A stretch of 64,000 nucleotides of DNA from an uncultured Actinomycetes bacterium. Lineage in GTDB: Bacteria > Actinomycetota > Aquicultoria > Subteraquimicrobiales > CAMTWV01. The stretch's first letter is position 1; each line of letters starts with the position of its first letter. Position numbers and translations under genes: made by a program. Shown one piece after another: positions 12,753 through 61,940 of this stretch. The stretch is taken from contig CAMTWV010000002.1 in the NCBI GenBank assembly GCA_947085535.1, positions 94,199 through 158,198 of the forward strand, read 5' to 3'. Under the pieces are notes generated by a model. It was not told where the DNA came from and did no database searches. It worked only from the letters and a program-made list of their open reading frames with translations.

Positions 12753-13142
12753 ATGGCAAGTATTGACGAAAAGTTGAGATTTTTATTTACCACACATTTA
12801 AGCCCTGACGGAGATGAATACACCTACGAGGAAGTTGCTCAAGGAACCGGAGGTGTAATTTCACCAAGTTATGTCTGGAATCTCCGAAATGGGAAGAAGC
12901 TGAATCCAAGCCGGTCTAAGATGGAAATACTGGCAAAATTCTTCGATGTGTCACCTTCCTACTTCTTTGATGAGGAAGACGCTCTAAAGAAAAGCTTAAG
13001 CATTGATACAAGAATCGTGAGAGCAATTGAAGACCCAGTGGTAAGAGACATTGCTTTGCGGGCAATGGACTTAAGCGACAGAAACAAAGAGTTTATTTTA
13101 GCTATGGTTGATAAAGCGAAAGAGTTAGTTGAGGAAAAATAG
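12753..13142 (+). CDS. XRE-family helix-turn-helix transcriptional regulator (ImmR/CapH/DdrO-like repressor candidate)
   Basis: HTH_3-like core YTYEEVAQGTGGVISPSYVWNLRNGKKLNPSRSKMEILAKFFDVSPSYFF plus about 50-aa C-terminal extension. SD AAAGGAGG 7 nt before ATG. Stop TAG overlaps the GTG of the next gene. Confidence 0.8.
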   Translation: MASIDEKLRFLFTTHLSPDGDEYTYEEVAQGTGGVISPSYVWNLRNGKKLNPSRSKMEILAKFFDVSPSYFFDEEDALKKSLSIDTRIVRAIEDPVVRDIALRAMDLSDRNKEFILAMVDKAKELVEEK

Positions 13143-13660
13143 TGCTCAACCAGAGCAAGCTTAGAAAAAAGGTTAATAAATTGCTAAAAGAATTGAATTT
13201 TGAAGGAAGTTTTGATTCTTTTAGGTTTGTTGAGAAACTCGGGGAGCAATTAAACTTAAAGATAAAACTCCAATCTGTTCCCATGCCGCCCGGTTTTTTT
13301 GGCTTCTGGAGTTTAATCAATGACTGTCATGTCATTCTTTATCGGGCAAATACTTCTTGGTTTCATCAGCAACAAATTATCTTCCATGAATGCGGGCATA
13401 TTTGTTTAGGCCATCATTCAGGAAGCATTGAAAAGTTTTTAAAAAGAGAAATTCTCTACTCCGAGCCCGAGGAGCAAGAAGCAGAAACTTTTGCCACACT
13501 TCTTCTATGTAATGCTATAACTCAGGGATTGACTGAGCAAGGTATTTCTCTAAGCCAATATTATAACCAAAACAGTTCTTTTTACAACGAGTGTCCCCAG
13601 GATGTAATTTCAATGCAGGATTTTATGCTTCAATTAAAAGAAGTAATGGAAATGAGGTGA
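13142..13660 (+). CDS. ImmA/IrrE-family (COG2856) HEXXH zinc metallopeptidase-domain protein
   Basis: IFHECGHICLGHH HEXXH motif followed by EAETFATLLL, matching the ImmA/IrrE E-x3-A-N-x-FA region. GTG start overlapping the upstream stop (translational coupling). Confidence 0.75.
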   Translation: MLNQSKLRKKVNKLLKELNFEGSFDSFRFVEKLGEQLNLKIKLQSVPMPPGFFGFWSLINDCHVILYRANTSWFHQQQIIFHECGHICLGHHSGSIEKFLKREILYSEPEEQEAETFATLLLCNAITQGLTEQGISLSQYYNQNSSFYNECPQDVISMQDFMLQLKEVMEMR

Positions 13661-13670
13661 GGTAACTCCC

Positions 13671-14960
13671 TTGCTTTATTACTTAGATTACCTTTTTCTT
13701 ATGCTCTTTTGGACTTGTACTTTGTATGCGCTTAAAGCTTATTATGTAAATCCACGTGATTCGAAGAATAAGCATGTTTTTTTGGTTTTTTTATTTGCTT
13801 CTATTGCTTTTACCTTTGCCGCACCCATTATTGCTCAAAAATTCAATAAGTTTTTGGGAATTAGCAGCATCAGTCGACCAATCGAGAATATCTCGAGCCT
13901 TATAGCTCTTTACTTTGGCTACCTTTTTTTTACGGATTTTGCTCCTAAAAAAAAGAAAAGAATTCCATGGCTTACTTTCTATCTTTTTTTGGTTACTGTA
14001 GCTCTAATTTCAATTTTTTCCCTGTTTTTGTCCAAACCTCAGCTTGAACCAATTTTTTTGGGTGAGGACACAAGAAATTTATCTGTTTTCATTTACAGTT
14101 TAGTTCTTCAGTCCCTTTTTCTCCCCCTTTTTGCTATTTATGCTTTAAATTTTTATAGATATGCTCGCCTGGTCAAAGAGCAAGCAACAAGAGTCAGACT
14201 TTATTCTTTATCGATAGGTTGTTTAATGGGCGCTTCGGGTCGCATTCTTGAACTCGTTTACTGGTTTGATATGCGGTATTTTGCTTATCTAAAGTTTTTC
14301 GGATTCTCTGCGGTTATTAGAATAATCAATTTATTTATGGTTTTATTTCTTTACGCTGGTTTTATAATGCCTGCTTTTTTAAGGAAAATTGTAGAGTCGT
14401 TTGGCGAACTGTTAGGATTGCGTCGAACTCGATATAATTTGATTTCCTTGCTTGCTTTAATTAACGACGCCCGTTCTTTTCTTCATTCTGATAATGAAAT
14501 GATTAATTATGTGCGGCGACTGTGCGAAAAATTTTTCTTAAGCTTAGAGGAGACAGCGCAGGCGGTAGAAAGTGCTCGGATAATTTCTGCTCTGGCTGGA
14601 AAAACAGATCAAAATTCAACTATGGAGTCTGCTCAGGTTTTTCATAGCGCTGCCAAGTATGCAGCGGCTGCCTTTGCTGAAGAAATTAAGTTTTATGACC
14701 AGGTTTATAAGAATATTTTGTATGCCAAGGAAAGGTATGACGGAAAGGATGCTATTTCTGACTTAAGTGGGGATAAATTACCAATGGGCTCACGCATTAT
14801 AAAAGTGGTTGATTGCTATTTCAATTCAAATCTTTTTCCCTTCGAAGCAGTCAAAGTTTTAAAGAAAGGTGCGAATAAAGAATTTGATCCCGAAGTAATA
14901 AAAGCTTTTATTGAAATACTCGAGGAAGAAAAAAACCTCAATCTCTTAAGATCTTCTTAG
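13671..14960 (+). CDS. 7-TM membrane protein with C-terminal degenerate (catalytically inactive) HD-GYP-like domain
   Basis: Seven hydrophobic segments in residues 1-235. The C-terminal 190 aa align by eye to the HD-GYP fold (ERYDGKDAIS ~ HHERWDGSGYP; GDKLPMGSRIIKVVDCYFN ~ GEEIPLEARILAVADVFDA; KEFDPEVIKAF ~ GTQFDPEVVEAF), but HD, HHE and GYP are replaced by LA, AKE and GKD. TTG start with SD AGGTGAGG. 3' end overlaps ribF by 23 nt on the opposite strand. Confidence 0.7.
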   Translation: MLYYLDYLFLMLFWTCTLYALKAYYVNPRDSKNKHVFLVFLFASIAFTFAAPIIAQKFNKFLGISSISRPIENISSLIALYFGYLFFTDFAPKKKKRIPWLTFYLFLVTVALISIFSLFLSKPQLEPIFLGEDTRNLSVFIYSLVLQSLFLPLFAIYALNFYRYARLVKEQATRVRLYSLSIGCLMGASGRILELVYWFDMRYFAYLKFFGFSAVIRIINLFMVLFLYAGFIMPAFLRKIVESFGELLGLRRTRYNLISLLALINDARSFLHSDNEMINYVRRLCEKFFLSLEETAQAVESARIISALAGKTDQNSTMESAQVFHSAAKYAAAAFAEEIKFYDQVYKNILYAKERYDGKDAISDLSGDKLPMGSRIIKVVDCYFNSNLFPFEAVKVLKKGANKEFDPEVIKAFIEILEEEKNLNLLRSS

Positions 14961-31931: not shown

Positions 31932-32084
31932 ATAGATTTTTTCTCCTTTTCTGGTTTTTTCCCGCCACCCGCTTCGATCTTTTCTTTGCCCCACTTTTGG
32001 CGAGGACCAGAAGAAAAGTCAGCGGATGTGAGTATTTAAAACGGTCAATAGTTTAGCATAGTCAGAAATTAACATCAATTATTT

Positions 32085-32870
32085 TTATTCCAGGACAGCC
32101 TGCGATTTTATTTTGCGAAGATATGTTTTTAACCTGAAAATAGCTTTAGTGTGAAGTTGGGAAACTCTCGATTCAGTTATGCCCATGATTTCCCCGATTT
32201 CTTTTAAAGTTAAACCTTCGTAGTAATAAAGTGCAACCACAATATTTTCTTTATCAGGGAGCCGTTCTATCGCTTTCATAAGAGATTCCTTAAGCTCTAA
32301 AAATTCAAAAACTTTAGAGGGGTCACGAGCAGTCACATCTTCAATTGTGTCAATTACGGCAATTTTGTCTTCCTTGTTTGTGTCAATTGTGTAAAGGTCT
32401 TCAAGTCCGGCTACACAGGAATGGCTTAGTTGAAACATTAAATTGTAAAGCTCATCCTGACTAACATTGAGCGCTTTGGCTAATTCTTCGTCTGTGGGAA
32501 TGCGTTTTAATTTTGCCTCTAAATCATTATAAGTTTTTTCCATTTCTCTTGATTTATGTCTGAGAGAGCGAGGCACCCAGTCCATAGCCCGAAGTTCGTC
32601 GATTATTGCTCCCTTAATTCGAGTTATTGCATAGTTCTCAAATTTGATATTTCGGGATGGGTCGAATTTTTCTATAGCATCGATTAAACCCAGGATGCCA
32701 TAACTAATTAAATCGGCAATCTCAATATTTGATGGGAGTTTGGAGTAAATTTTGCCTGCTACATATTTTACTAAAGGAGCATAATAAAGAATAAGTTTAT
32801 CGCGGGTCTCATTGGATTTGGCTTTTTTATATCCATCCCAGATTTTTTGGATTTCTGGTGCGGTTTCTAT
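32085..32870 (-). CDS. FliA/WhiG (sigma-28) family RNA polymerase sigma factor. Orphan (no flagellar genes nearby). No canonical start codon upstream of region 2
   Basis: Regions 2.x (LILYYAPLVKYVAGKI...GLIDAIEKFDPSRNIKFENYAITRIKGAIIDELR), 3 and 4.2 (LTLKEIGEIMGITESRVSQLHTKAIFRLK) are all in one frame that stays open to a stop at 32952-32954 with no ATG/GTG/TTG. AGGAGG sits 9 nt before ATA at 32868-32870, the position expected for Met1 by comparison with the SigD N-terminus. The ORF track starts at an internal Met (32585). Confidence 0.75.
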   Translation of the reverse strand: METAPEIQKIWDGYKKAKSNETRDKLILYYAPLVKYVAGKIYSKLPSNIEIADLISYGILGLIDAIEKFDPSRNIKFENYAITRIKGAIIDELRAMDWVPRSLRHKSREMEKTYNDLEAKLKRIPTDEELAKALNVSQDELYNLMFQLSHSCVAGLEDLYTIDTNKEDKIAVIDTIEDVTARDPSKVFEFLELKESLMKAIERLPDKENIVVALYYYEGLTLKEIGEIMGITESRVSQLHTKAIFRLKTYLRKIKSQAVLE

Positions 32871-32905
32871 TTTTACTCTCCTCCTACTTGTTCTTTTAAT
32901 TAAAC

Positions 32906-33814
32906 CTAAGCACGTGGGTGAGTTTGTTGATAAATTTCTTTTAACTTTGTTTTACTTAAATGAGTATAAACTTGGGTTGAGGATAAATCAATGTGCCCTA
33001 AAAGCTCTTGAACAGACCTTAAGTCAGCTCCACGCTCAAGCAAATGGGTGGCAAAAGTGTGTCTTAAAAGGTGAGGAAAAATTTTAAGGTCACTGCCTAT
33101 TTTTTTAATGTACTTATCCAAGCAAGCTCGAATTGCTCTTTGAGTGAGTCGTTCGCCGTCTTTATTTAAAAATAAGGCTTTTTCAGTTTTTGCTCGTTCG
33201 GGGTGTTTTGAAAGAAGTTTTTTTCGTCCGTTTGCAATGTAGACTTGAATTGACTCGAGGGCTTTTCTGTTTAAAGGAAGGATTCTTTCTTTTCTTCCCT
33301 TTCCGACAACCTTAATTTCGCCTTGAGCAAAATTAACCTCGTTTATATCCATGTTTGTAAGCTCACCAACACGTATGCCTGCGCCATAAAGTGTTTCAAT
33401 CATTGCTTTGTCTCTTTGTCCTAATGGGGTGGTTTCATCAGGTGCAGATATCAATCGTTCTATGAAATCGACTTTTAAAATGCGAGGCAGTCTTTTTTCG
33501 ATTTTAGGAGAAGAAAGCATTGTAGTGGGATTTGTTTTAAGCTGGCTGGTTTTTTTAAGATAAGCGAAGAATGTTCTTAAAGCAGCTATTTTCCTAGCGA
33601 TGCTTGTTTTGCTGTACTTTAAAGTTTGAAGATAAGCAAGATATTGACGAAGAAGATTATAATTGACGTTTGAAAGCTTAATCCTGCTACGCTCGAGAAA
33701 AGTCAAAAATTGAGTTATGTCAAATTTGTATGCCTCAATGGTGTTTAAAGAGAAATTTCTCTCGGAAGATAGATACATTAAAAACTTTTTTAAAGCGTCC
33801 TTTGCTTGTGCCAT
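32906..33814 (-). CDS. xerC: tyrosine recombinase XerC/XerD family
   Basis: N-terminal SAM-like core-binding domain. C-terminal R...HxxR...Y (LLRHTFATHLL...QVYTH). 302 aa. Confidence 0.85.
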   Translation of the reverse strand: MAQAKDALKKFLMYLSSERNFSLNTIEAYKFDITQFLTFLERSRIKLSNVNYNLLRQYLAYLQTLKYSKTSIARKIAALRTFFAYLKKTSQLKTNPTTMLSSPKIEKRLPRILKVDFIERLISAPDETTPLGQRDKAMIETLYGAGIRVGELTNMDINEVNFAQGEIKVVGKGRKERILPLNRKALESIQVYIANGRKKLLSKHPERAKTEKALFLNKDGERLTQRAIRACLDKYIKKIGSDLKIFPHLLRHTFATHLLERGADLRSVQELLGHIDLSSTQVYTHLSKTKLKEIYQQTHPRA

Positions 33815-51460: not shown

Positions 51461-52645
51461 CTAAGAACACCTTGTCTCTTTAAGTTTAGAAATTAAAACA
51501 GGGACGACCTCAAATAAATCGCCCACTATCCCATAATTGGCTACACTAAAGATAGGAGCATCTGGGTCTTTATTAATAGCCACAATTGTCTCTGATGTTT
51601 GCATGCCAGCTAAATGCTGAATTGCACCCGATATACCACAGGCGATGTATAATTTAGGACAAACTGTCTTTCCTGTTTGTCCAACTTGATGAGAGTAAGG
51701 TATCCACTCGGCGTCAACAGCTGCTCTTGAAGCACCAACTGCAGCGTTCAAAAGAGAGGCAAATTCCTTGATTAGTTTAAAATTATCAGCTTTCCCTAAA
51801 CCTCGACCGCCAGAAACGATAACATCTGCTTCCTCAAGTTTTACTTTCTCGGTTAAATCTTCGACAAAATTAAGGACATTTATTTTTGAAGAAAGATTTT
51901 TTGGTTCGAATTTAATAATTTCACCTTGCCGCGAACTTGAAAAGTCAAGCTTTTTCATTACACGAGGCCGAACAGTTGCCATTTGCGGTCTTTTATTAGG
52001 ACAAACAATTGTAGCCATGATGTTTCCACCGAAAGCCGGTCGGGTTTGAAGAAGTAATCTGTTTTTTAAATCAATTTCAAGTCCAGTGCAATCAGCAGTT
52101 AAACCTGTTTTTAAGATAGCAGCAATCTTGGGAGCAATTGATCTTCCAACAACTGTTGCTCCAAAAAGCACAGTCTCTGGCTTATATTGATTAATTAAAT
52201 CAACCATGACTTGTGCGTAGGCATCGTCAAGGTGATCTTTTAATAAGTCATCCTCAACAAGAAAAACCTTATCAGCTCCATGACCAATTAATTTGTCCGT
52301 TCCATCTTTTATGTTTTTCCCTAAAAGAACCGCTGCGAGATAAGTTCCTAACGAATCGGCTAACTTCCTTCCTTCCCCTAAAAGCTCATAAACAACAGAA
52401 GCAATATTTTTGTTTCTTTGCTCGGTAAAAACCCAAATTCCATTATACCCAGAGGTATCCTCAATTTTTCTTTTGTCTTCAATAACAATGGCATTAGACT
52501 TGCAAACCTCCACACAAGCTCCGCACAAGTTGCAATTTGCTTCAATAATTGCTTTTTTTTCAAATACTTTAATGGCTTGATAGGGACAGCTTTTTACACA
52601 GAGTTTGCAGCCATTACATTTTTCAAGAATTACCTTGATTGACAT
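51461..52645 (-). CDS. etfA: electron-transfer flavoprotein alpha subunit with N-terminal 2x[4Fe-4S] ferredoxin domain (CarE-type EtfA)
   Basis: CNGCKLCVKSCP and CNLCGACVEVC ferredoxin motifs, then EtfA FAD-binding domain. 1-nt gap to etfB, 0-nt gap to fabD. Confidence 0.85.
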   Translation of the reverse strand: MSIKVILEKCNGCKLCVKSCPYQAIKVFEKKAIIEANCNLCGACVEVCKSNAIVIEDKRKIEDTSGYNGIWVFTEQRNKNIASVVYELLGEGRKLADSLGTYLAAVLLGKNIKDGTDKLIGHGADKVFLVEDDLLKDHLDDAYAQVMVDLINQYKPETVLFGATVVGRSIAPKIAAILKTGLTADCTGLEIDLKNRLLLQTRPAFGGNIMATIVCPNKRPQMATVRPRVMKKLDFSSSRQGEIIKFEPKNLSSKINVLNFVEDLTEKVKLEEADVIVSGGRGLGKADNFKLIKEFASLLNAAVGASRAAVDAEWIPYSHQVGQTGKTVCPKLYIACGISGAIQHLAGMQTSETIVAINKDPDAPIFSVANYGIVGDLFEVVPVLISKLKETRCS

Positions 52646-52646
52646 T

Positions 52647-53432
52647 TTAAATTAACCTACCTTGTTTTAATTTATCAATTAAAGTGTCGACCTGAGTTTC
52701 TAAGTTACCTTGAAGCATTCCACCTTTTTGGTGTCTTTCAGGAGTAAAAATTTTAATCACCTGAGTGGGTGAACCGGCTAAACCAACTTTATCTTTTTTA
52801 GCGTCTATATCTTGATGGTTCCAAATGGTAACTTGGGCACTTTTTGCCTTCATCATTCCCTTGAGCGAAGGAAGACGGGGCTCATTTATTTCCTTAACTA
52901 CAGTAATTAGACCTGGAAGAGGCATTCCAATAACTTCATAACCTTCTTCAACCATTCTTTCAACCACAATCTTATTTTCATTAATTTCTTCAACTTTTTT
53001 AACAAAAGTGACATAGGGAATGGAAAGAAAATGAGCAAGCTCGGGACCAACTTGGCCAGTGTCACCATCCATAGTTTGTTTACCACAAATTATAAGGTCA
53101 AATGAACCGATTTTTTCGATGGTTTTAGAGAGAGTATATGAAGTTGCCAGAGTATCGGCACCCGCAAACGCTCTATCGCTCAAAAGTATGGCTTCATCTG
53201 CTCCTACTGTAAGAGCATCACGTAAAACTTGCTCGGCTTGAGGAGGTCCCATAGTAATTACGGTAACTTTCCCACCCACACGCTCTTTTAATCTAACTCC
53301 CTCTTCAAGAGCGTATGTGTCAAAAGGATTGATGATACTATCGACTCCCTGTCTTATGAGAGTATTTGTGTTAGGGTCAATTTTTACTTCGGTTGTTCCA
53401 GGAACTTGCTTAATGCAAACAATAATTTCCAT
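52647..53432 (-). CDS. etfB: electron-transfer flavoprotein beta subunit
   Basis: MEIIVCIKQVPGTTEVKIDPNTNTLIRQGV typical EtfB start. 261 aa. Confidence 0.85.
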   Translation of the reverse strand: MEIIVCIKQVPGTTEVKIDPNTNTLIRQGVDSIINPFDTYALEEGVRLKERVGGKVTVITMGPPQAEQVLRDALTVGADEAILLSDRAFAGADTLATSYTLSKTIEKIGSFDLIICGKQTMDGDTGQVGPELAHFLSIPYVTFVKKVEEINENKIVVERMVEEGYEVIGMPLPGLITVVKEINEPRLPSLKGMMKAKSAQVTIWNHQDIDAKKDKVGLAGSPTQVIKIFTPERHQKGGMLQGNLETQVDTLIDKLKQGRLI

Positions 53433-53450
53433 TTTGACTTCCTTTGGTCA

Positions 53451-54611
53451 CTAATTTGCTGTCAGAGTGCTTTCTTTAATTAGCTGAAGCGCAATAACAT
53501 TTCTTTGAATTTGATTAGTGCCTTCATATATCTGAATAATTTTTGCATCCCGCATCATTTTTTCGACAGGATATTCTCGCATGTAACCATATCCACCAAA
53601 AATCTGAACAGCATCAACTGTTATTTTCATAGCCACATCGGAAGCAAAAACTTTTGCCATAGCCGAAATTTTAGAGACATCTTTTGCCCCTGCATCTATG
53701 GATTTTGCCACTTGGTAAACCAAAGCCCTCGCAGCTTCAATTTCTGTAGCCATATCAGCTAACATATGCTGAATAGCCTGAAAAGAAGAAATTGATTGGC
53801 CAAACTGCACTCGCTGACGGGAGTAATTCAAAGTAGCTTCGAGAGCACCCGCAGCTAATCCCACAGCTTGAGCACCTATGCCAGGACGCGTCACATCCAG
53901 TGTTTTCATAGCAACAATAAAGCCAAGTCCTTCTTTCCCGATTAAGTTTTCGGCCGGTATTTTACAATTTTCAAAAATAAGTTCTCTTGTGGCTGAAGCT
54001 CTGATACCAAGTTTTTTTTCTTTCTTGCCAAAAGAAAACCCAGGGATTCCTTTTTCAACAATAAAAGCACTCGCTCCACGAGCACCTTTGCTTTTGTCTG
54101 TTAAAGCAATAATTGTGTATATTTCGGCTTCTCCGCCATTAGTTATCCATTGCTTTGTTCCATTCAATATATAGTAATCGCCTTCGCGAACTGCGTTTGT
54201 TTGGATGCCACCAGCGTCGCTTCCTGCGTTTGCTTCCGTTAAACCAAATGCTGCTAATTTTGTTCCCTTAGCAACGTCAGGTAAGTACTTCTTTTTTTGC
54301 TCGTCAGAACCAAAAAGAAGAATGGGATAAGCTCCTAACGCGCTTGCCGCATAACTCACCGAAACACCGCAACAACCTCGGCTCAATTCTTCCATGACTA
54401 AACAATTCTCAAAACAGCCCATCCCGAAACCTCCATATTCTTCCGGGACGTATAAGCCAAATAAATCTGACTCGGCTAAAATTTTAAGTATTTCCCAGGG
54501 AAACTCTTCTTTCTCGTCGAGTTCGGCTCGCGCTGGGATTATTTTTTCTTCAGTAATTCTTCTTGCTAAATCCTTAATCATTCTTTGCTCATCAGTTAAG
54601 AAATAATCCAT
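53451..54611 (-). CDS. acyl-CoA dehydrogenase family flavoprotein (butyryl-CoA dehydrogenase-like; CarC-type), embedded in the fab operon
   Basis: ACAD N-, middle- and C-terminal domains. Catalytic Glu in YEGTNQIQR. 15-nt gap after fabH and 18-nt gap before etfB. Confidence 0.85.
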   Translation of the reverse strand: MDYFLTDEQRMIKDLARRITEEKIIPARAELDEKEEFPWEILKILAESDLFGLYVPEEYGGFGMGCFENCLVMEELSRGCCGVSVSYAASALGAYPILLFGSDEQKKKYLPDVAKGTKLAAFGLTEANAGSDAGGIQTNAVREGDYYILNGTKQWITNGGEAEIYTIIALTDKSKGARGASAFIVEKGIPGFSFGKKEKKLGIRASATRELIFENCKIPAENLIGKEGLGFIVAMKTLDVTRPGIGAQAVGLAAGALEATLNYSRQRVQFGQSISSFQAIQHMLADMATEIEAARALVYQVAKSIDAGAKDVSKISAMAKVFASDVAMKITVDAVQIFGGYGYMREYPVEKMMRDAKIIQIYEGTNQIQRNVIALQLIKESTLTAN

Positions 54612-58724: not shown

Positions 58725-60872
58725 TTAAGCATAAAACAACCAATCGAGATTGCTGGCAAATTTTCTTCTCACAGCTTGAAATAGTGGTCGATTTTCAGAT
58801 AATTTCAGAGCAGGGTCTTTTTCTATTAATTCGAATGCATCATCTCGAGCTTGAAGCAAAATATTTATGTCACGAGTAATCTTGGCTAACTTTAAATCGG
58901 GTAAACCCGATTGTCTGACTCCAAAAATTTGCCCCTCGCCTCTTATTTCAAGATCAAGCTCCGCGAGTTTAAAACCATCATGAGTGTTAACAATAGCTTC
59001 CATCCGTTGTCTGCCTTCATCTGTGGTTGGGTCAGCAAAAAGGAAACAATAGCCCTTGTGCTGTCCTCGTCCAATCCTGCCTCTTAACTGGTGAAGCTGG
59101 GATAAGCCAAATCTTTCAGCATCCTCAATTAACATAACAGTTGCATTGGGAACATCAACACCAACTTCAACGACTGTCGTTGAGATAAGAACATCTAATT
59201 CTCTTCCGACAAAGGATTCCATGATTGTTTCTTTTTCTTCTGTCTTTAATTTGCTGTGAATAAAACCCACTCTTAAATCAGGAAAAACTTCGTTTTCTAA
59301 TCTTTCAATTTCAGCCATAACTGCTTTAACTTCTAACTTATCGGATTCTTCGATTAAAGGACAAATTATGTAAGCCTGTCTTCCCTGCCTTACTTCGCTT
59401 CTTATTTTCTCATTGGCGAAATTTCGGTGAGTTTTATCTAAAACAGTAGTTTCTACATGTTCAGATAGGTTTCTCCCTCCGGGAAGTTCATTAATAATTG
59501 AAATATCGAGGTCTCCATATAAAGTAAGTGAAAGAGTTCGGGGAATTGGTGTCGCAGTCATGACAAGAACGTCAGAAAAAGTTCCTTTTTCTTTAAGTGC
59601 CACTCTTTGTTGAACACCAAATCTGTGTTGTTCATCCACGATAACTAAACCAAGTTTAGAAAAGACAACGTCTTTTTGGATTATAGCGTGTGTTCCGATA
59701 ACTATATCAACTTTACCTTTACTGATTTCTTCTTGTAAAACTTTCTTTTCTTTTTCAGTTAAACTTCCTTTAAGTAAGGCTATTCTTACGGAAGGCATTC
59801 TTTCATGGGATACAAATAAACTTTCCAGTAAGTGAGTTATTTTTTTAAAGTGCTGTTCGGCTAAGATTTCTGTTGGAGCCATCATGGCTGCTTGATAACC
59901 ACCTTGCACAGCAACAAGAAGTGAAGCAAGAGCCACTACTGTTTTACCTGAACCGACCTCACCTTGCAGCAAGCGATTCATTGGTAAAGGAGAAGCCATG
60001 TCTTTTAAAATTTCTGAAATGGTTTTTTTCTGGCTGTTTGTCAATGCAAAAGGTAAAGAGCAATAAAATTCATCAATGAGTGGTCCTTCAATCTGGTGAG
60101 CTATGCCTGTTGTTTGATTCTTAAATTGTTTCTTACGAAAAGCTAATCCGACTTGCATTAAGAATAATTCCTCGTAAAGCAATCTTCTTCGAGCTTCCTC
60201 ACAATATCTCTCCGATGTGGGAAAGTGTATTTCTTTAAGGGCTGAATAACGGTCTAAAAAATTGTATTTGGCTAATATAAAGGAAGGCAGCGAGTCAGAA
60301 AGAACCGGAGAAGTGTCAAGCATATTTTTAATTATTCGTCGAAGTCGGGCTGTGGTTAGATATTGGGAAGCAGGATGAAACGGAATAATTCGACTGGTAT
60401 GGACAGTGTCTTCGCCTAATCGGGTATCTTCATCAATTACTTCGTAAAGAGGATTTTCTATTTGGAGCTGACCATATCTAAAGGAAGTTTTTCCGCTAAA
60501 AGCAACGACCATACCATCTTTTAACCTATCCGCAATGAAATCCTGATTAAACCACACTCCATAGAGATATTCTGTTCCATCAAAAATACCCACATTTATA
60601 ACTCGAATACCGCTTTTGCCCACAGTTTTCCGAACAATTTTAACCTCGCCGACTACAGTTACCTCTTCACCAACCTTTACATTTGATATGGATAAAACTT
60701 TTGCCGTGTTTAAATAGCGATGCGGAAAGTGATAAAGCAGATCTTCAACAACAAAAATACCCATTCGATTAAGCTGCTTCGAGATACCAGGACCAACAAA
60801 CTTAAGATAAGTTACTTCTTTGTCTAAAAAGTTCGATTCTAAAGCATAACCATTTTTCGGGGATTCTTTTAT
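58725..60872 (-). CDS. recG: ATP-dependent DNA helicase RecG. Conserved N-terminal helix-hairpin-helix lies upstream of the first ATG
   Basis: Helicase motifs GEVGSGKT, DEQHRFG, wedge domain. Upstream of the track start (60764) the same frame encodes LKFVGPGISKQLNRMGIFVVEDLLYHFPHRY, matching the RecG N-terminal LTGVGAALSNKLAKIGIHTVQDLLLHLPLRY. The frame stays open to the degV stop at 61083 with no ATG/GTG/TTG. Proposed start ATA at 60870-60872 after AAAGGAA. Confidence 0.8.
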   Translation of the reverse strand: MKESPKNGYALESNFLDKEVTYLKFVGPGISKQLNRMGIFVVEDLLYHFPHRYLNTAKVLSISNVKVGEEVTVVGEVKIVRKTVGKSGIRVINVGIFDGTEYLYGVWFNQDFIADRLKDGMVVAFSGKTSFRYGQLQIENPLYEVIDEDTRLGEDTVHTSRIIPFHPASQYLTTARLRRIIKNMLDTSPVLSDSLPSFILAKYNFLDRYSALKEIHFPTSERYCEEARRRLLYEELFLMQVGLAFRKKQFKNQTTGIAHQIEGPLIDEFYCSLPFALTNSQKKTISEILKDMASPLPMNRLLQGEVGSGKTVVALASLLVAVQGGYQAAMMAPTEILAEQHFKKITHLLESLFVSHERMPSVRIALLKGSLTEKEKKVLQEEISKGKVDIVIGTHAIIQKDVVFSKLGLVIVDEQHRFGVQQRVALKEKGTFSDVLVMTATPIPRTLSLTLYGDLDISIINELPGGRNLSEHVETTVLDKTHRNFANEKIRSEVRQGRQAYIICPLIEESDKLEVKAVMAEIERLENEVFPDLRVGFIHSKLKTEEKETIMESFVGRELDVLISTTVVEVGVDVPNATVMLIEDAERFGLSQLHQLRGRIGRGQHKGYCFLFADPTTDEGRQRMEAIVNTHDGFKLAELDLEIRGEGQIFGVRQSGLPDLKLAKITRDINILLQARDDAFELIEKDPALKLSENRPLFQAVRRKFASNLDWLFYA

Positions 60873-61082
60873 AGAAATTCCTTTATTTATGTAAGAGTTA
60901 AGGAATTTTTCGCGCTCTTTAACAAGGGAAAAAGGATAAATGCGGGCAATTTCTTTGAAAGATTCATTTATTGAGGAAAGGTAAACATCAAATCCCCCGA
61001 TGACAGCTCTATTTTCCGCATTTAAGTTTTTTTCAACTAAAAAAGAAATTTTTTCAGAGGATTTTGTTTCGGAAATTTTCGA

Positions 61083-61940
61083 TTACCCCTCCTCGTAGAA
61101 AAAGAGAGCTACGGCACCTGGACCGATATAAGTTCCAATTACGCTTCCTATTTGAGCTTCAAGAAGAGAAACATGCTCAATATTTTCTTTTTTAATTTCC
61201 TTTATAAGTAAGTCAGCTACTTTTTTATCATCAGAATAAGCCACGCCTAAACGGAGGGGCTTTTCCCCACTGATACTTTCTTTAAGAGAACTAATTAGCT
61301 CAGGCATGATTCGTGCGGTTCCCCTGATCTTTTTATAAGGTGCGACAACACCGTCATCAAGGGTTAAAACAGGTTTTATGCTAAGCAAAGAACCTACAAG
61401 AGCTTGTGCTTTACCAATTCTCCCACCCAGATGAAGGTACTTTAATGTGTCAAGAACGAAGAAAATTTTAACTTTCTCACTTAAAGAATTGGCTAAATTA
61501 GCCAGGTCATTAAAAGATTTTCCTTCGTTTCTTGCCCTTACAAGAGCATCAACAATCATTCCGAGGGCAGCAGATGCTTGTTTTGAATCGATAATTTCGA
61601 TGGCTGCTCCTTTTATCATTTCTTTAGCCGCAGTGGCTGAACCAATGGTACCGCTTAATTTTTCAGAGATATGCACTGATATAATCTGAGAGCACCCTTC
61701 TTCAACAAGTTTTTTGTAAGCGCTCATAAATTCCATAGTGGTTGGTTGAGAAGTTTTGGGTAAAACCTCAGATGTTTTTAATCTCTGGTAGAAATCTTCA
61801 GGATTCATTTCTGTCCAGTCACGATAGATTTCTTCCTCTCCAAACCGAACGGTTAAGGGAACTATTATCACCTCGTTTTCTTTGTAATATGAAAGCGGTA
61901 AGTCGGCAGTACTATCTGTTACAATAGCAATTTTTTCCAT
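61083..61940 (-). CDS. DegV-family fatty-acid-binding protein (FakB)
   Basis: MEKIAIVTDSTADLP start. 285 aa. Directly downstream of the DAK2-domain gene. Confidence 0.85.
   Translation of the reverse strand: MEKIAIVTDSTADLPLSYYKENEVIIVPLTVRFGEEEIYRDWTEMNPEDFYQRLKTSEVLPKTSQPTTMEFMSAYKKLVEEGCSQIISVHISEKLSGTIGSATAAKEMIKGAAIEIIDSKQASAALGMIVDALVRARNEGKSFNDLANLANSLSEKVKIFFVLDTLKYLHLGGRIGKAQALVGSLLSIKPVLTLDDGVVAPYKKIRGTARIMPELISSLKESISGEKPLRLGVAYSDDKKVADLLIKEIKKENIEHVSLLEAQIGSVIGTYIGPGAVALFFYEEG

What the first reader, a model, noticed from the sequence alone, without database searches (positions are those of the whole stretch)
32085..32954. Orphan FliA/sigma-28-type sigma factor directly upstream of rpsB with no flagellar genes and no canonical start codon
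The Bacillus-type order ...xerC-(clpQY-codY-fla/che operon)-sigD-rpsB-tsf... is preserved except that everything between xerC and the sigma gene is missing. The sigma gene abuts xerC (stop 32906-32908) and is the only flagellar-regulon gene in the window. Its conserved region 2 is encoded upstream of the first ATG. The frame is open back to 32952 without ATG/GTG/TTG. A perfect AGGAGG sits 9 nt before an in-frame ATA (32868-32870), at the position of Met1 in SigD. It is either translated from AUA (rare), a recent ATG-to-ATA mutation or sequencing error, or a decaying relic of a lost flagellar system. If functional, an orphan sigma-28 in a non-flagellate would control something other than motility.
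Basis: partly seen in the sequence, partly recalled or inferred. Interest (0 to 1): 0.5.

Follow-up and report, generated by a model that had tools for sequence, protein, structure and literature searches.

The report
WhiG-type sigma factor starting at AUA
This is an intact actinobacterial WhiG-type sigma-28 gene at its usual place between xerC and rpsB. It most likely starts translation at a rare AUA codon behind a perfect ribosome-binding site, which is why public gene calls truncate it.

Summary
A FliA/WhiG-family sigma gene (minus strand, 32085-32870) sits between xerC and rpsB. Its region 2 lies upstream of the first ATG/GTG/TTG, and AGGAGG sits 9 nt before an in-frame ATA.

It is not a sequencing error. 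Five other assemblies, from two populations (dS about 0.05), carry the identical start region.

It is not a decaying relic. There are no stops or indels, and non-synonymous changes are depleted, including in the 95 codons upstream of the first ATG.

The "deleted Bacillus fla/che operon" reading is only partly right. xerC-sigma(-rpsB) is the standard whiG locus across Actinomycetota.

"Orphan in a non-flagellate" cannot be concluded. The organism probably belongs to Ca. Aquicultoria, a class where flagellar clusters are reported to be common. Sigma-28 factors with non-flagellar roles are already well known (WhiG).

Two additions:
- Several whiG orthologues also lack a canonical start at the homologous codon: CTG in five Solirubrobacterales MAGs, most labelled Solirubrobacteraceae.
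- recG in this same window starts at ATT behind a strong SD.

Best explanation: attenuated, SD-driven initiation at AUA, as shown experimentally for ccpN and infC in Staphylococcus. This is a new member of known kinds, of moderate interest.

The parts
32906..33814 (-). xerC (tyrosine recombinase, 302 aa); its TAG stop at 32908-32906 lies 35 nt upstream of the sigma start
   Evidence: ORF list. Pfam Phage_int_SAM_1 plus Phage_integrase on the identical gene in L003/L001. Adjacency to the sigma gene is conserved across Actinomycetota.
32880..32885 (-). Shine-Dalgarno core AGGAGG (within AGGAGGAGAG), 9 nt upstream of the ATA
   Evidence: Sequence. Identical in five other assemblies. In the census of AGGAGG hexamers on the gene strand, 9 of 23 sit 7-10 nt before a listed gene start.
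32868..32870 (-). ATA: proposed near-cognate initiation codon
   Evidence: It is in frame, 10 codons before the invariant Trp, where homologues have their start 7-14 codons before it. There is no ATG/GTG/TTG in any frame between the xerC stop and this codon. It is conserved in L001-L005.
32085..32870 (-). WhiG-type sigma-28 coding sequence, 261 aa plus stop
   Evidence: NF004935 WhiG 346 bits and TIGR02479 268 bits. Full-length alignment to homologues. omega = 0.33 against L001.
32577..32795 (-). Sigma region 2 (residues 26-98), lying entirely upstream of the first canonical start
   Evidence: Pfam PF04542, 61 bits. Within the ATA clade the first 95 codons carry 3 synonymous and 1 non-synonymous change.
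32583..32585 (-). First in-frame ATG; start of the truncated 166-aa product that public gene calls give
   Evidence: P0012/P0121 are 166-aa database entries. No SD-like sequence precedes it.
32433..32546 (-). Sigma region 3 (residues 109-146)
   Evidence: Pfam PF04539.
32127..32273 (-). Sigma region 4 (residues 200-248), containing ALYYYEGL, which corresponds to the RsiG-contact stretch TLYYYEGL of Streptomyces WhiG
   Evidence: Pfam PF04545. Comparison with Streptomyces WhiG from L056/L058/L077 and the residues listed in PMC12871210.
31203..31931 (-). rpsB, 153 nt downstream of the sigma stop; no terminator-like site lies between them

Best explanation
The gene encodes a functional, full-length WhiG-type (sigma-28 family) sigma factor at the conserved actinobacterial xerC-whiG-rpsB locus. 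Its translation most likely starts at the near-cognate AUA codon (32870-32868). A perfect AGGAGG Shine-Dalgarno 9 nt upstream places the 30S subunit there, 35 nt after the xerC stop.

Shown here:
- The family assignment.
- The absence of any canonical start.
- The SD geometry.
- Conservation of the ATA in independent assemblies.
- Purifying selection on the whole ORF, including region 2.

Inferred:
- AUA serves as the initiator and lowers WhiG synthesis to a few percent up to about 30% of what AUG would give.
- The strong SD, and possibly coupling to xerC translation, partly compensates.
- This keeps a dose-sensitive regulator scarce and makes its synthesis sensitive to IF3 and growth state.

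What the factor transcribes is unknown. Flagellar or chemotaxis late genes, type IV pili, or other targets are all possible.
For: Family: NF004935 WhiG 346 bits against a cut-off of 343; TIGR02479 268 bits; regions 2, 3 and 4 present. The closest named relatives are actinobacterial WhiG proteins, and Streptomyces WhiG loci match at 52-53%.

WhiG2 signature residues: K57 and G61 are kept and R62 is K. L236, Y239, E240 and L242 are kept and T235 is A.

No alternative start: there is no ATG/GTG/TTG in frame for 122 codons, and none in any frame between the xerC stop and the ATA.

SD geometry: AGGAGG plus 9 nt.

Not an error: AGGAGGAGAGTAAAAATAGAAACC is identical in L001 (SRR27458589), L002 (GCA_964480305.1) and L003-L005 (ERR3478695/709/701).

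Selection within the ATA clade:
- 19 variable sites, 10 non-synonymous and 9 synonymous, against 78.5% non-synonymous expected under neutrality (binomial P = 0.011).
- Using the neighbours' dS of 0.04-0.05, 25-31 non-synonymous changes are expected and 10 are seen (P <= 7.5e-4).
- In the 95 codons before the first ATG, 1 is seen against 9-11 expected (P <= 1.4e-3).
- There are no indels or stops.
- omega is 0.33, similar to xerC (0.31) and tsf (0.38).

Start position: the 78%-identical relative L006 has ATG one codon from the ATA position, with an in-frame stop 6 codons upstream of it (read from the alignment). Homologues start 7-14 codons before the invariant Trp, and the ATA is 10 codons before it.

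Precedent: AUA/AUU starts with strong or extended SD in S. aureus infC, ccpN, cvfC1 and citZ give about 10-30% of AUG (PMC13009471). AUA gives 1-2% of AUG in E. coli (bioRxiv 10.1101/063800).

Parallel cases:
- Five Solirubrobacterales whiG orthologues (four labelled Solirubrobacteraceae) have xerC-TGA, then 17-20 nt with an SD, then CTG, exactly where sister species have ATG or TTG. L068 and L078 have in-frame stops just upstream (the spacing was read for four of the five).
- recG in this window starts at ATT behind GAGGAGGGG.
Against: No protein-level or ribosome-profiling evidence exists, so initiation at AUA is inferred.

The ATA clade is shallow (dS about 0.05) and the selection tests rest on 19 substitutions. 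Purifying selection on the ORF could in principle reflect a very recent start loss in a common ancestor.

The dN of the sigma gene (0.0165) is the highest among the nine neighbouring genes compared. That is compatible with slightly relaxed constraint.

R62K and T235A change residues that contact c-di-GMP and RsiG in Streptomyces WhiG.

No WhiG-type promoter occurs in the window above chance, and no RsiG motif was found. No partner or target is therefore visible.

AUA efficiency in this organism is unknown.
Confidence: 0.75

Rival explanations
1. Recently inactivated gene. An ATG (or neighbouring start) mutated in the common ancestor of the ATA clade, and the ORF is an untranslated relic that has not yet accumulated disabling mutations.
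For: Gene callers cannot find a start (P0012 is 166 aa, P0001 is 225 aa). The clade is young (dS about 0.05). The sigma gene has the highest dN of the nine genes compared. The nearest outgroup, L006, has ATG.
Against: Non-synonymous changes are depleted (P = 0.011 binomial; P <= 7.5e-4 against the neighbours' neutral rate). In the N-terminal 95 codons, 1 is seen against 9-11 expected. There are no indels or stops in 786 nt in six sequences. A perfect SD is kept at ideal spacing. The same start-less architecture recurs in other whiG orthologues that are separate species.
Confidence: 0.1
2. Translation starts further upstream at ATT 32900-32898, 5 nt after the xerC stop, by termination-reinitiation. 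This would give a product 10 residues longer in which AGGAGG is read as Arg-Arg.
For: ATT is a table-11 initiator, is in frame, and lies immediately after the xerC stop. The NF004935 profile has about 12 more N-terminal positions than the ATA-started protein.
Against: No SD precedes the ATT. The extension IKRTSRRRVK is not conserved. In L006 an in-frame TAA lies 6 codons upstream of its ATG, so no such extension is possible there (read from the alignment). Homologues start 7-14 codons before the invariant Trp, whereas this ATT is 20 codons before it.
Confidence: 0.05
3. Only the 166-aa C-terminal part (regions 3-4), read from ATG 32585, is made, as annotated in public records. It would act as something other than a sigma factor.
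For: It is the first canonical start and the product that automatic annotation reports.
Against: No SD precedes that ATG. The 95 codons upstream encode an intact, highly conserved region 2 that is under at least as strong constraint as the rest (3 synonymous and 1 non-synonymous change). The homologous Met is replaced by Leu, Ile or Val in most relatives, so it is an internal residue.
Confidence: 0.03
4. Base-call or assembly error at 32868-32870; the real codon is ATG.
For: A single A-for-G difference would restore ATG.
Against: The 24-nt start region is identical in five other assemblies from five different samples or MAGs, including a population that differs at 18 other positions of the gene.
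Confidence: 0.01

Closest known systems
WhiG (sigma-WhiG) of Streptomyces and the WhiG2 clade of Actinomycetota (Gallagher/Schumacher/Buttner; Denis et al. 2026, PMC12871210)
   Same: It is a sigma-28 family protein with regions 2, 3 and 4. It scores above the NCBIfam WhiG equivalog cut-off. It is 52-53% identical to Streptomyces WhiG. It lies at the same chromosomal neighbourhood (rpsB-tsf-pyrH-frr downstream). Six of the eight residues that contact c-di-GMP or RsiG are identical, and R62 is conservatively replaced by Lys.
   Different: It comes from a low-GC (38%), deep-branching, uncultured lineage, probably Ca. Aquicultoria. It carries R62K and T235A. No RsiG, no target promoters and no phenotype are known. 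Its start codon is ATA, whereas Streptomyces whiG has a canonical start.
SigD of Bacillus subtilis / FliA of Proteobacteria (flagellar sigma-28)
   Same: Same sigma family (PRK07670 233 bits, PRK06986 237 bits). The gene lies upstream of rpsB, as sigD does at the end of the fla/che operon. That the flanking order dprA-(trmFO)-xerC ... rpsB-tsf-pyrH-frr-uppS-cdsA-dxr is shared with Bacillus is from my own knowledge of that genome.
   Different: The score is below the curated cut-off of the SigD-type equivalog (233 against 326). No flagellar or chemotaxis gene lies between xerC and the sigma gene, nor anywhere in 64 kb. The FlgM partnership is untestable here.
Translation attenuation by near-cognate start codons with strong or extended SD (infC AUU in E. 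coli, cited in PMC5499595; infC, ccpN and citZ AUA and cvfC1 AUU in S. aureus, PMC13009471)
   Same: A regulator gene with an AUA start, a strong SD at proper spacing, no canonical alternative, and conservation among close relatives.
   Different: No experimental mapping here. Conservation is shallow (one clade). No evidence yet for IF3-dependent or growth-dependent control.

Membership tests
FliA/WhiG sigma-28 family (TIGR02479) | Scores above the curated family HMM cut-off | tested here: met
   268.1 bits against a cut-off of 189.6, covering residues 27-251.
FliA/WhiG sigma-28 family (TIGR02479) | Group-3 sigma architecture: regions 2, 3 and 4, no region 1.1 | tested here: met
   Pfam Sigma70_r2 at 26-98, r3 at 109-146, r4 at 200-248; 261 aa in total.
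FliA/WhiG sigma-28 family (TIGR02479) | Recognises TAAA-N15/16-GCCGATAA-type promoters | tested here: inconclusive
   The window has 0 exact matches (0.58 expected) and relaxed matches at chance level, all inside coding regions. 64 kb of housekeeping genes cannot settle this.
WhiG / WhiG2 clade (NF004935; Denis et al. 2026) | Scores above the WhiG equivalog cut-off | tested here: met
   346.3 bits against 343, so marginal.
WhiG / WhiG2 clade (NF004935; Denis et al. 2026) | c-di-GMP-contacting residues K57, G61 and R62 (S. venezuelae numbering) | tested here: inconclusive
   The window has VKYVAGK: K and G are kept and R62 is K (residues).
WhiG / WhiG2 clade (NF004935; Denis et al. 2026) | RsiG-contacting region-4 residues T235, L236, Y239, E240 and L242 | tested here: met
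   The window has ALYYYEGL: four of five are identical, with T235A as in most deep-branching homologues.
WhiG / WhiG2 clade (NF004935; Denis et al. 2026) | Co-occurrence with the anti-sigma RsiG (E-x3-S-x2-R-x3-Q-x3-D motif) | not testable with these tools
   The motif is absent from the six-frame translation of the window, but the rest of the genome could not be retrieved.
WhiG / WhiG2 clade (NF004935; Denis et al. 2026) | Phylogenetic placement inside WhiG2 rather than WhiG1 | not tested
   No WhiG1 reference sequences were available. Placement is inferred from the HMM score, the signature residues and the shared xerC/rpsB locus.
Flagellar SigD/FliA | Encoded in or next to a flagellar/chemotaxis cluster | tested here: not met
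   No ORF of 90 aa or more in the 64 kb has a flagellar or chemotaxis Pfam domain. The gene directly abuts xerC and rpsB.
Flagellar SigD/FliA | The genome has a flagellar regulon and FlgM | not testable with these tools
   Only the window is available. The literature reports frequent flagellar clusters in the probable class (PMC10746217).
Near-cognate-start genes (infC / ccpN type) | Conserved coding sequence upstream of any canonical start | tested here: met
   All of region 2 lies upstream of the first ATG, and the leader without a start is 122 codons long.
Near-cognate-start genes (infC / ccpN type) | Strong SD at 5-10 nt from an AUA/AUU/AUC/CUG codon at the homologous N-terminus | tested here: met
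   AGGAGG, then 9 nt, then ATA; homologous Met1 is within one codon.
Near-cognate-start genes (infC / ccpN type) | The near-cognate codon is conserved among relatives | tested here: met
   It is identical in six sequences from two populations. It is not conserved beyond the clade, as L006 has ATG.
Near-cognate-start genes (infC / ccpN type) | Initiation at that codon demonstrated experimentally | not testable with these tools
   Needs proteomics, ribosome profiling or reporters.
Pseudogene | Frameshifts or stops, or dN/dS near 1 | tested here: not met
   No stops or indels. omega = 0.33. Depletion of non-synonymous changes has P = 0.011 to below 1e-3.

The most novel reading that the evidence does not exclude
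Near-cognate initiation may not be a one-off here.

(a) whiG orthologues at the xerC locus may have repeatedly swapped their start for weak codons. These are ATA here, CTG in five Solirubrobacterales MAGs, possibly ATC in another Solirubrobacterales MAG (L020), and many GTG/TTG elsewhere. Always placed just after the xerC stop, such starts would keep this dose-sensitive sigma factor scarce and tie its synthesis to xerC translation, IF3 or growth state.

(b) This Aquicultoria-like lineage may use AUA/AUU starts at percent-level frequency: 2 of roughly 60 genes in this window. That would imply relaxed start-codon discrimination and systematic truncation of genes in its public annotations.
Probability: 0.3. 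Interest if true: 0.55.

Novelty: new member of a known kind. Interest (0 to 1): 0.35.

Why it matters
There is a practical point. Public records give this sigma factor as a 166-aa or 225-aa fragment without region 2, because gene callers ignore ATA. recG in the same window is truncated by about 104 residues in the same way. Surveys of sigma factors, WhiG evolution or flagellar regulation in deep-branching Actinomycetota would miss or misjudge such genes.

There is also a biological point. A key lifestyle regulator appears to be held at a low translation level by a weak start codon. The same solution (CTG) appears independently in other whiG orthologues. That gives a testable hypothesis about dose control of WhiG, which is otherwise known to be controlled post-translationally by RsiG and c-di-GMP.

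It does not reveal a new kind of system.

Tried and rejected
- Sequencing error: rejected by comparison with five other assemblies.
- Pseudogene: rejected by the selection tests.
- Upstream ATT start: disfavoured, with no SD and an extension that is impossible in L006.
- Frameshift or an out-of-frame start: there is no ATG/GTG/TTG in any frame between the xerC stop and the ATA.
- WhiG/sigma-28 promoter motifs in the window: none above chance.
- RsiG motif: absent from the window.
- Rfam and tRNA scans of the window: nothing found.
- Terminator and promoter scans around the locus: no terminator, and promoter-like sites below the chance level.
- Metagenome scan for closer relatives: nothing above 56% identity.
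- Retrieving more of the 160,664-nt source contig, to look for flagellar genes: failed because the NCBI contig is not indexed for look-up.
- Presence or absence of flagella therefore could not be decided.
Full report
**1. What is in the sequence**

On the minus strand an ORF ends at TAA 32087-32085. It is open back to 32951, where the in-frame stop is TAA 32954-32952. Its first ATG/GTG/TTG is ATG 32585-32583. The xerC gene ends at TAG 32908-32906. AGGAGG lies at 32885-32880. After a 9-nt spacer, ATA follows at 32870-32868, in frame.

Read from the ATA, the product is 261 aa. It scores 268 bits on TIGR02479 FliA_WhiG (cut-off 189.6) and 346.3 bits on the NCBIfam WhiG equivalog NF004935 (cut-off 343). 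It scores only 233 bits on the Bacillus-type model PRK07670 (cut-off 326). Pfam places region 2 at residues 26-98, region 3 at 109-146 and region 4 at 200-248. All of region 2 therefore lies upstream of the first canonical start, which is residue 96.

The start-less open leader of 122 codons is extreme for this window. The median over 85 ORFs is 5, the next-longest after recG is 28, and P is about 0.009 given in-frame start-codon usage.

**2. Not an error, not a relic**

The protein search found near-identical database entries called as 166 aa (P0012, 99%) and 225 aa (P0001, 95-96%). Gene callers elsewhere also failed to find a start. Their contigs come from SRR27458589, GCA_964480305.1 and ERR3478695/709/701. 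All carry exactly the same AGGAGGAGAGTAAAAATAGAAACC.

The two populations differ at 18 of 786 positions, and six sequences give 19 variable sites. Ten are non-synonymous and nine synonymous, against 78.5% non-synonymous expected under neutrality (binomial P = 0.011). With the neighbours' dS (0.04-0.05) as the neutral rate, 25-31 non-synonymous changes are expected and 10 are seen (P <= 7.5e-4). In the 95 codons before the first ATG, 1 is seen against 9-11 expected (P <= 1.4e-3). There are no indels or stops. Omega is 0.33, in the range of xerC (0.31), tsf (0.38) and uppS (0.30), although the sigma gene's dN is the highest of the nine genes compared.

The next relative (L006, 78% identical) has ATG one codon from the ATA position. 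It has a weak SD, and an in-frame stop lies six codons upstream (read from the alignment). That rules out a conserved N-terminal extension from the upstream ATT (32900). No ATG/GTG/TTG occurs in any frame between the xerC stop and the ATA. The internal ATG 32585 has no SD.

The best-supported start is therefore AUA.

**3. What the gene is**

All close named relatives are actinobacterial WhiG-type proteins. Streptomyces WhiG loci match at 52-53%.

In most of the roughly 85 actinobacterial loci fetched, xerC ends 20-150 nt upstream of the sigma gene, and in many of them rpsB follows closely. This holds for Thermoleophilia, Gaiellales, Coriobacteriia, Frankiales and Aquicultorales, and for the 61-62% relatives L169 and L170. 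In L169 and L170 the order is dprA-trmFO-xerC-sigma-rpsB.

The wider order of the window is Asp23-fakA-degV-recG ... plsX-fab-rnc-smc-ftsY-ffh-rpsP-rimM-trmD-rplS-lepB-rnhB-yraN-comM-dprA-xerC-sigma-rpsB-tsf-pyrH-frr-uppS-cdsA-dxr-rseP-ispG-proS-rimP-nusA-infB-rbfA-truB-ribF-pnp. To my knowledge this is an ancient order shared by Bacillota and Actinomycetota.

In Bacillus the fla/che operon and sigD sit between xerC and rpsB. But the absence of flagellar genes at this spot is the phylum-wide state of the whiG locus, not a peculiarity of this genome.

Denis et al. (2026 preprint, PMC12871210) divide actinobacterial homologues into two clades. WhiG1 is associated with flagellar clusters. WhiG2 is controlled by RsiG and c-di-GMP. 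They list diagnostic residues. The window protein keeps K57 and G61 (R62 is K) and L236, Y239, E240 and L242 (T235 is A). That is consistent with WhiG2, though I did not build a tree.

**4. 'Orphan in a non-flagellate'?**

No ORF of 90 aa or more in the window has a flagellar or chemotaxis Pfam domain. That says little about the genome. The best named PNPase hits are Ca. Subteraquimicrobiales (80%) and Ca. Aquicultor (62%), both in class Ca. Aquicultoria. Zhu et al. 2023 (PMC10746217) list this class among the basal classes in which 41-91% of species carry flagellar clusters.

I could not retrieve the rest of the genome. WhiG-type promoter motifs occur in the window only at chance level, and no RsiG motif is present. 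The target regulon is unknown.

That sigma-28 factors can control sporulation, type IV pili and other functions is established (PMC8325347, PMC12871210).

**5. Mechanism**

Near-cognate AUA initiates at 1-2% of AUG in E. coli reporters (bioRxiv 10.1101/063800). In an optimised context in vitro it can behave like AUG, and non-AUG starts are particularly sensitive to nutrient limitation and ppGpp (PMC5499595).

In S. aureus, ribosome profiling and reporters showed AUA/AUU starts for infC, ccpN (a transcription regulator; the AUA is conserved in B. subtilis), cvfC1 and citZ. All have strong extended SDs, and they give about 10-30% of AUG (PMC13009471).

The present gene has the same anatomy. I therefore infer attenuated, SD-dependent initiation that keeps the sigma factor scarce. 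No terminator separates xerC, the sigma gene and rpsB, and the start lies 35 nt after the xerC stop. Coupling to xerC translation is therefore possible but untested.

**6. Two additions that widen the finding**

(a) Across 85 orthologous loci, six have no canonical start near the homologous position.
- Five Solirubrobacterales MAGs, four of them labelled Solirubrobacteraceae (L068, L070, L076, L078, L086), have an SD followed by CTG-GAG-ACS-AAY-GTC-AAA. Sister species have ATG (L060, L085 and others) or TTG (L062) at that codon.
- In the four for which the xerC end could be read, the SD and CTG lie within 17-20 nt after the xerC TGA.
- In L068 and L078 in-frame stops lie just upstream, so no other start is possible.
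- L020 has no canonical start in its 99-nt spacer (possibly ATC). L038 is ambiguous (CTG or TTG).
- The same test on rpsB, tsf and pyrH in these loci gave 0 of 93.
- A rough tally of the nearest starts gives GTG 39, ATG 34, TTG 5, none 6 and ambiguous 1 (heuristic).
- The CTG cases are probably one clade. The number of independent events is therefore about three, not eight.

(b) In this same window recG shows the same pattern.
- Its first ATG (60764) lies inside the conserved N-terminal motif. The frame is open 106 codons further up, to the degV stop.
- The stretch LDKEVTYLKFVGPG... aligns to T. maritima RecG 1GM5 from residue 113.
- The N-terminal NRAVIGGF motif is shared with homologues whose Met aligns with ATT 61076-61074.
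- GAGGAGGGG precedes that ATT by 9-11 nt.
- The DNA is identical in an independent assembly.
- Two of about 60 genes with AUH starts suggest that this lineage tolerates such starts more than model bacteria do.

**7. Verdict**

The interpretation needs correcting on synteny and on 'orphan'. The most likely explanation is a functional WhiG-type sigma factor translated from AUA.

Both components are known kinds of thing: WhiG2-like sigma factors, and attenuation by near-cognate starts with a strong SD. Their combination and recurrence in whiG orthologues has, as far as the papers I read show, not been described. Interest is moderate: useful for annotation, and a testable hypothesis on WhiG dosage.

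Noticed in passing
window 58725-61093 (minus strand); ATT 61076-61074; AGGAGG 61093-61088: recG also lacks a canonical start. Conserved N-terminal sequence (the NRAVIGGF and LDKEVTYLKFVGPG motifs) lies in a 106-codon start-less leader that runs up to the degV stop, in the same frame. The likely start is ATT behind GAGGAGGGG, giving 783 aa instead of the annotated 679.
   Followed up: yes
L068, L070, L076, L078, L086 (also L038, L020), just downstream of their xerC stops: whiG orthologues in Solirubrobacterales (mostly Solirubrobacteraceae) MAGs have CTG exactly where sister species have ATG or TTG. Where read, only 17-20 nt containing an SD separates the xerC stop from the CTG. L020 has no canonical start in a 99-nt spacer.
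   Followed up: partly
window 12753-14960 (plus strand): A small plus-strand island lies in an otherwise minus-strand region. It holds an HTH_3 protein (129 aa), an ORF with no Pfam hit (172 aa) and a 429-aa protein with a C-terminal HD_5 domain. An HD-GYP-like function (possible c-di-GMP phosphodiesterase) is only my guess. Any link to WhiG/c-di-GMP control is speculative.
   Followed up: no
window 51461-54611 (minus strand): An acyl-CoA dehydrogenase and an EtfB/EtfA pair (EtfA carries an N-terminal ferredoxin domain) are inserted inside the fatty-acid synthesis cluster, between fabH and fabD.
   Followed up: no
L001 7065 / L002 2210 (codon 37 of the sigma gene): A synonymous GTA-to-GTG change in the sister population creates an in-frame GTG. 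Gene callers take it as the start (225-aa product P0001). This is an annotation artefact with no SD.
   Followed up: yes
protein P0002 (410 aa, ENA contig of 2.3 kb): This database entry looks like a partial WhiG-like sigma (regions 2-3) fused to a second, full-length copy. It may be a tandem duplication or an assembly chimera in a high-GC relative.
   Followed up: no
L171 10966-12860 (Ca. Aquicultorales MAG): Between whiG and rpsB this relative has two ORFs with no Pfam hit (197 and 120 aa) and a HigB/HTH_3 toxin-antitoxin pair. The whiG-rpsB spacer is therefore an insertion-tolerant spot.
   Followed up: no
window 31932-32084: The 153-nt spacer between the sigma stop and the rpsB start is G+C-richer and looks structured (for example GGTCCTCGCCAAAAGTGGGGC ... 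GCGGGTGGCGGG). No Rfam family matched. It may be an rpsB leader.
   Followed up: no
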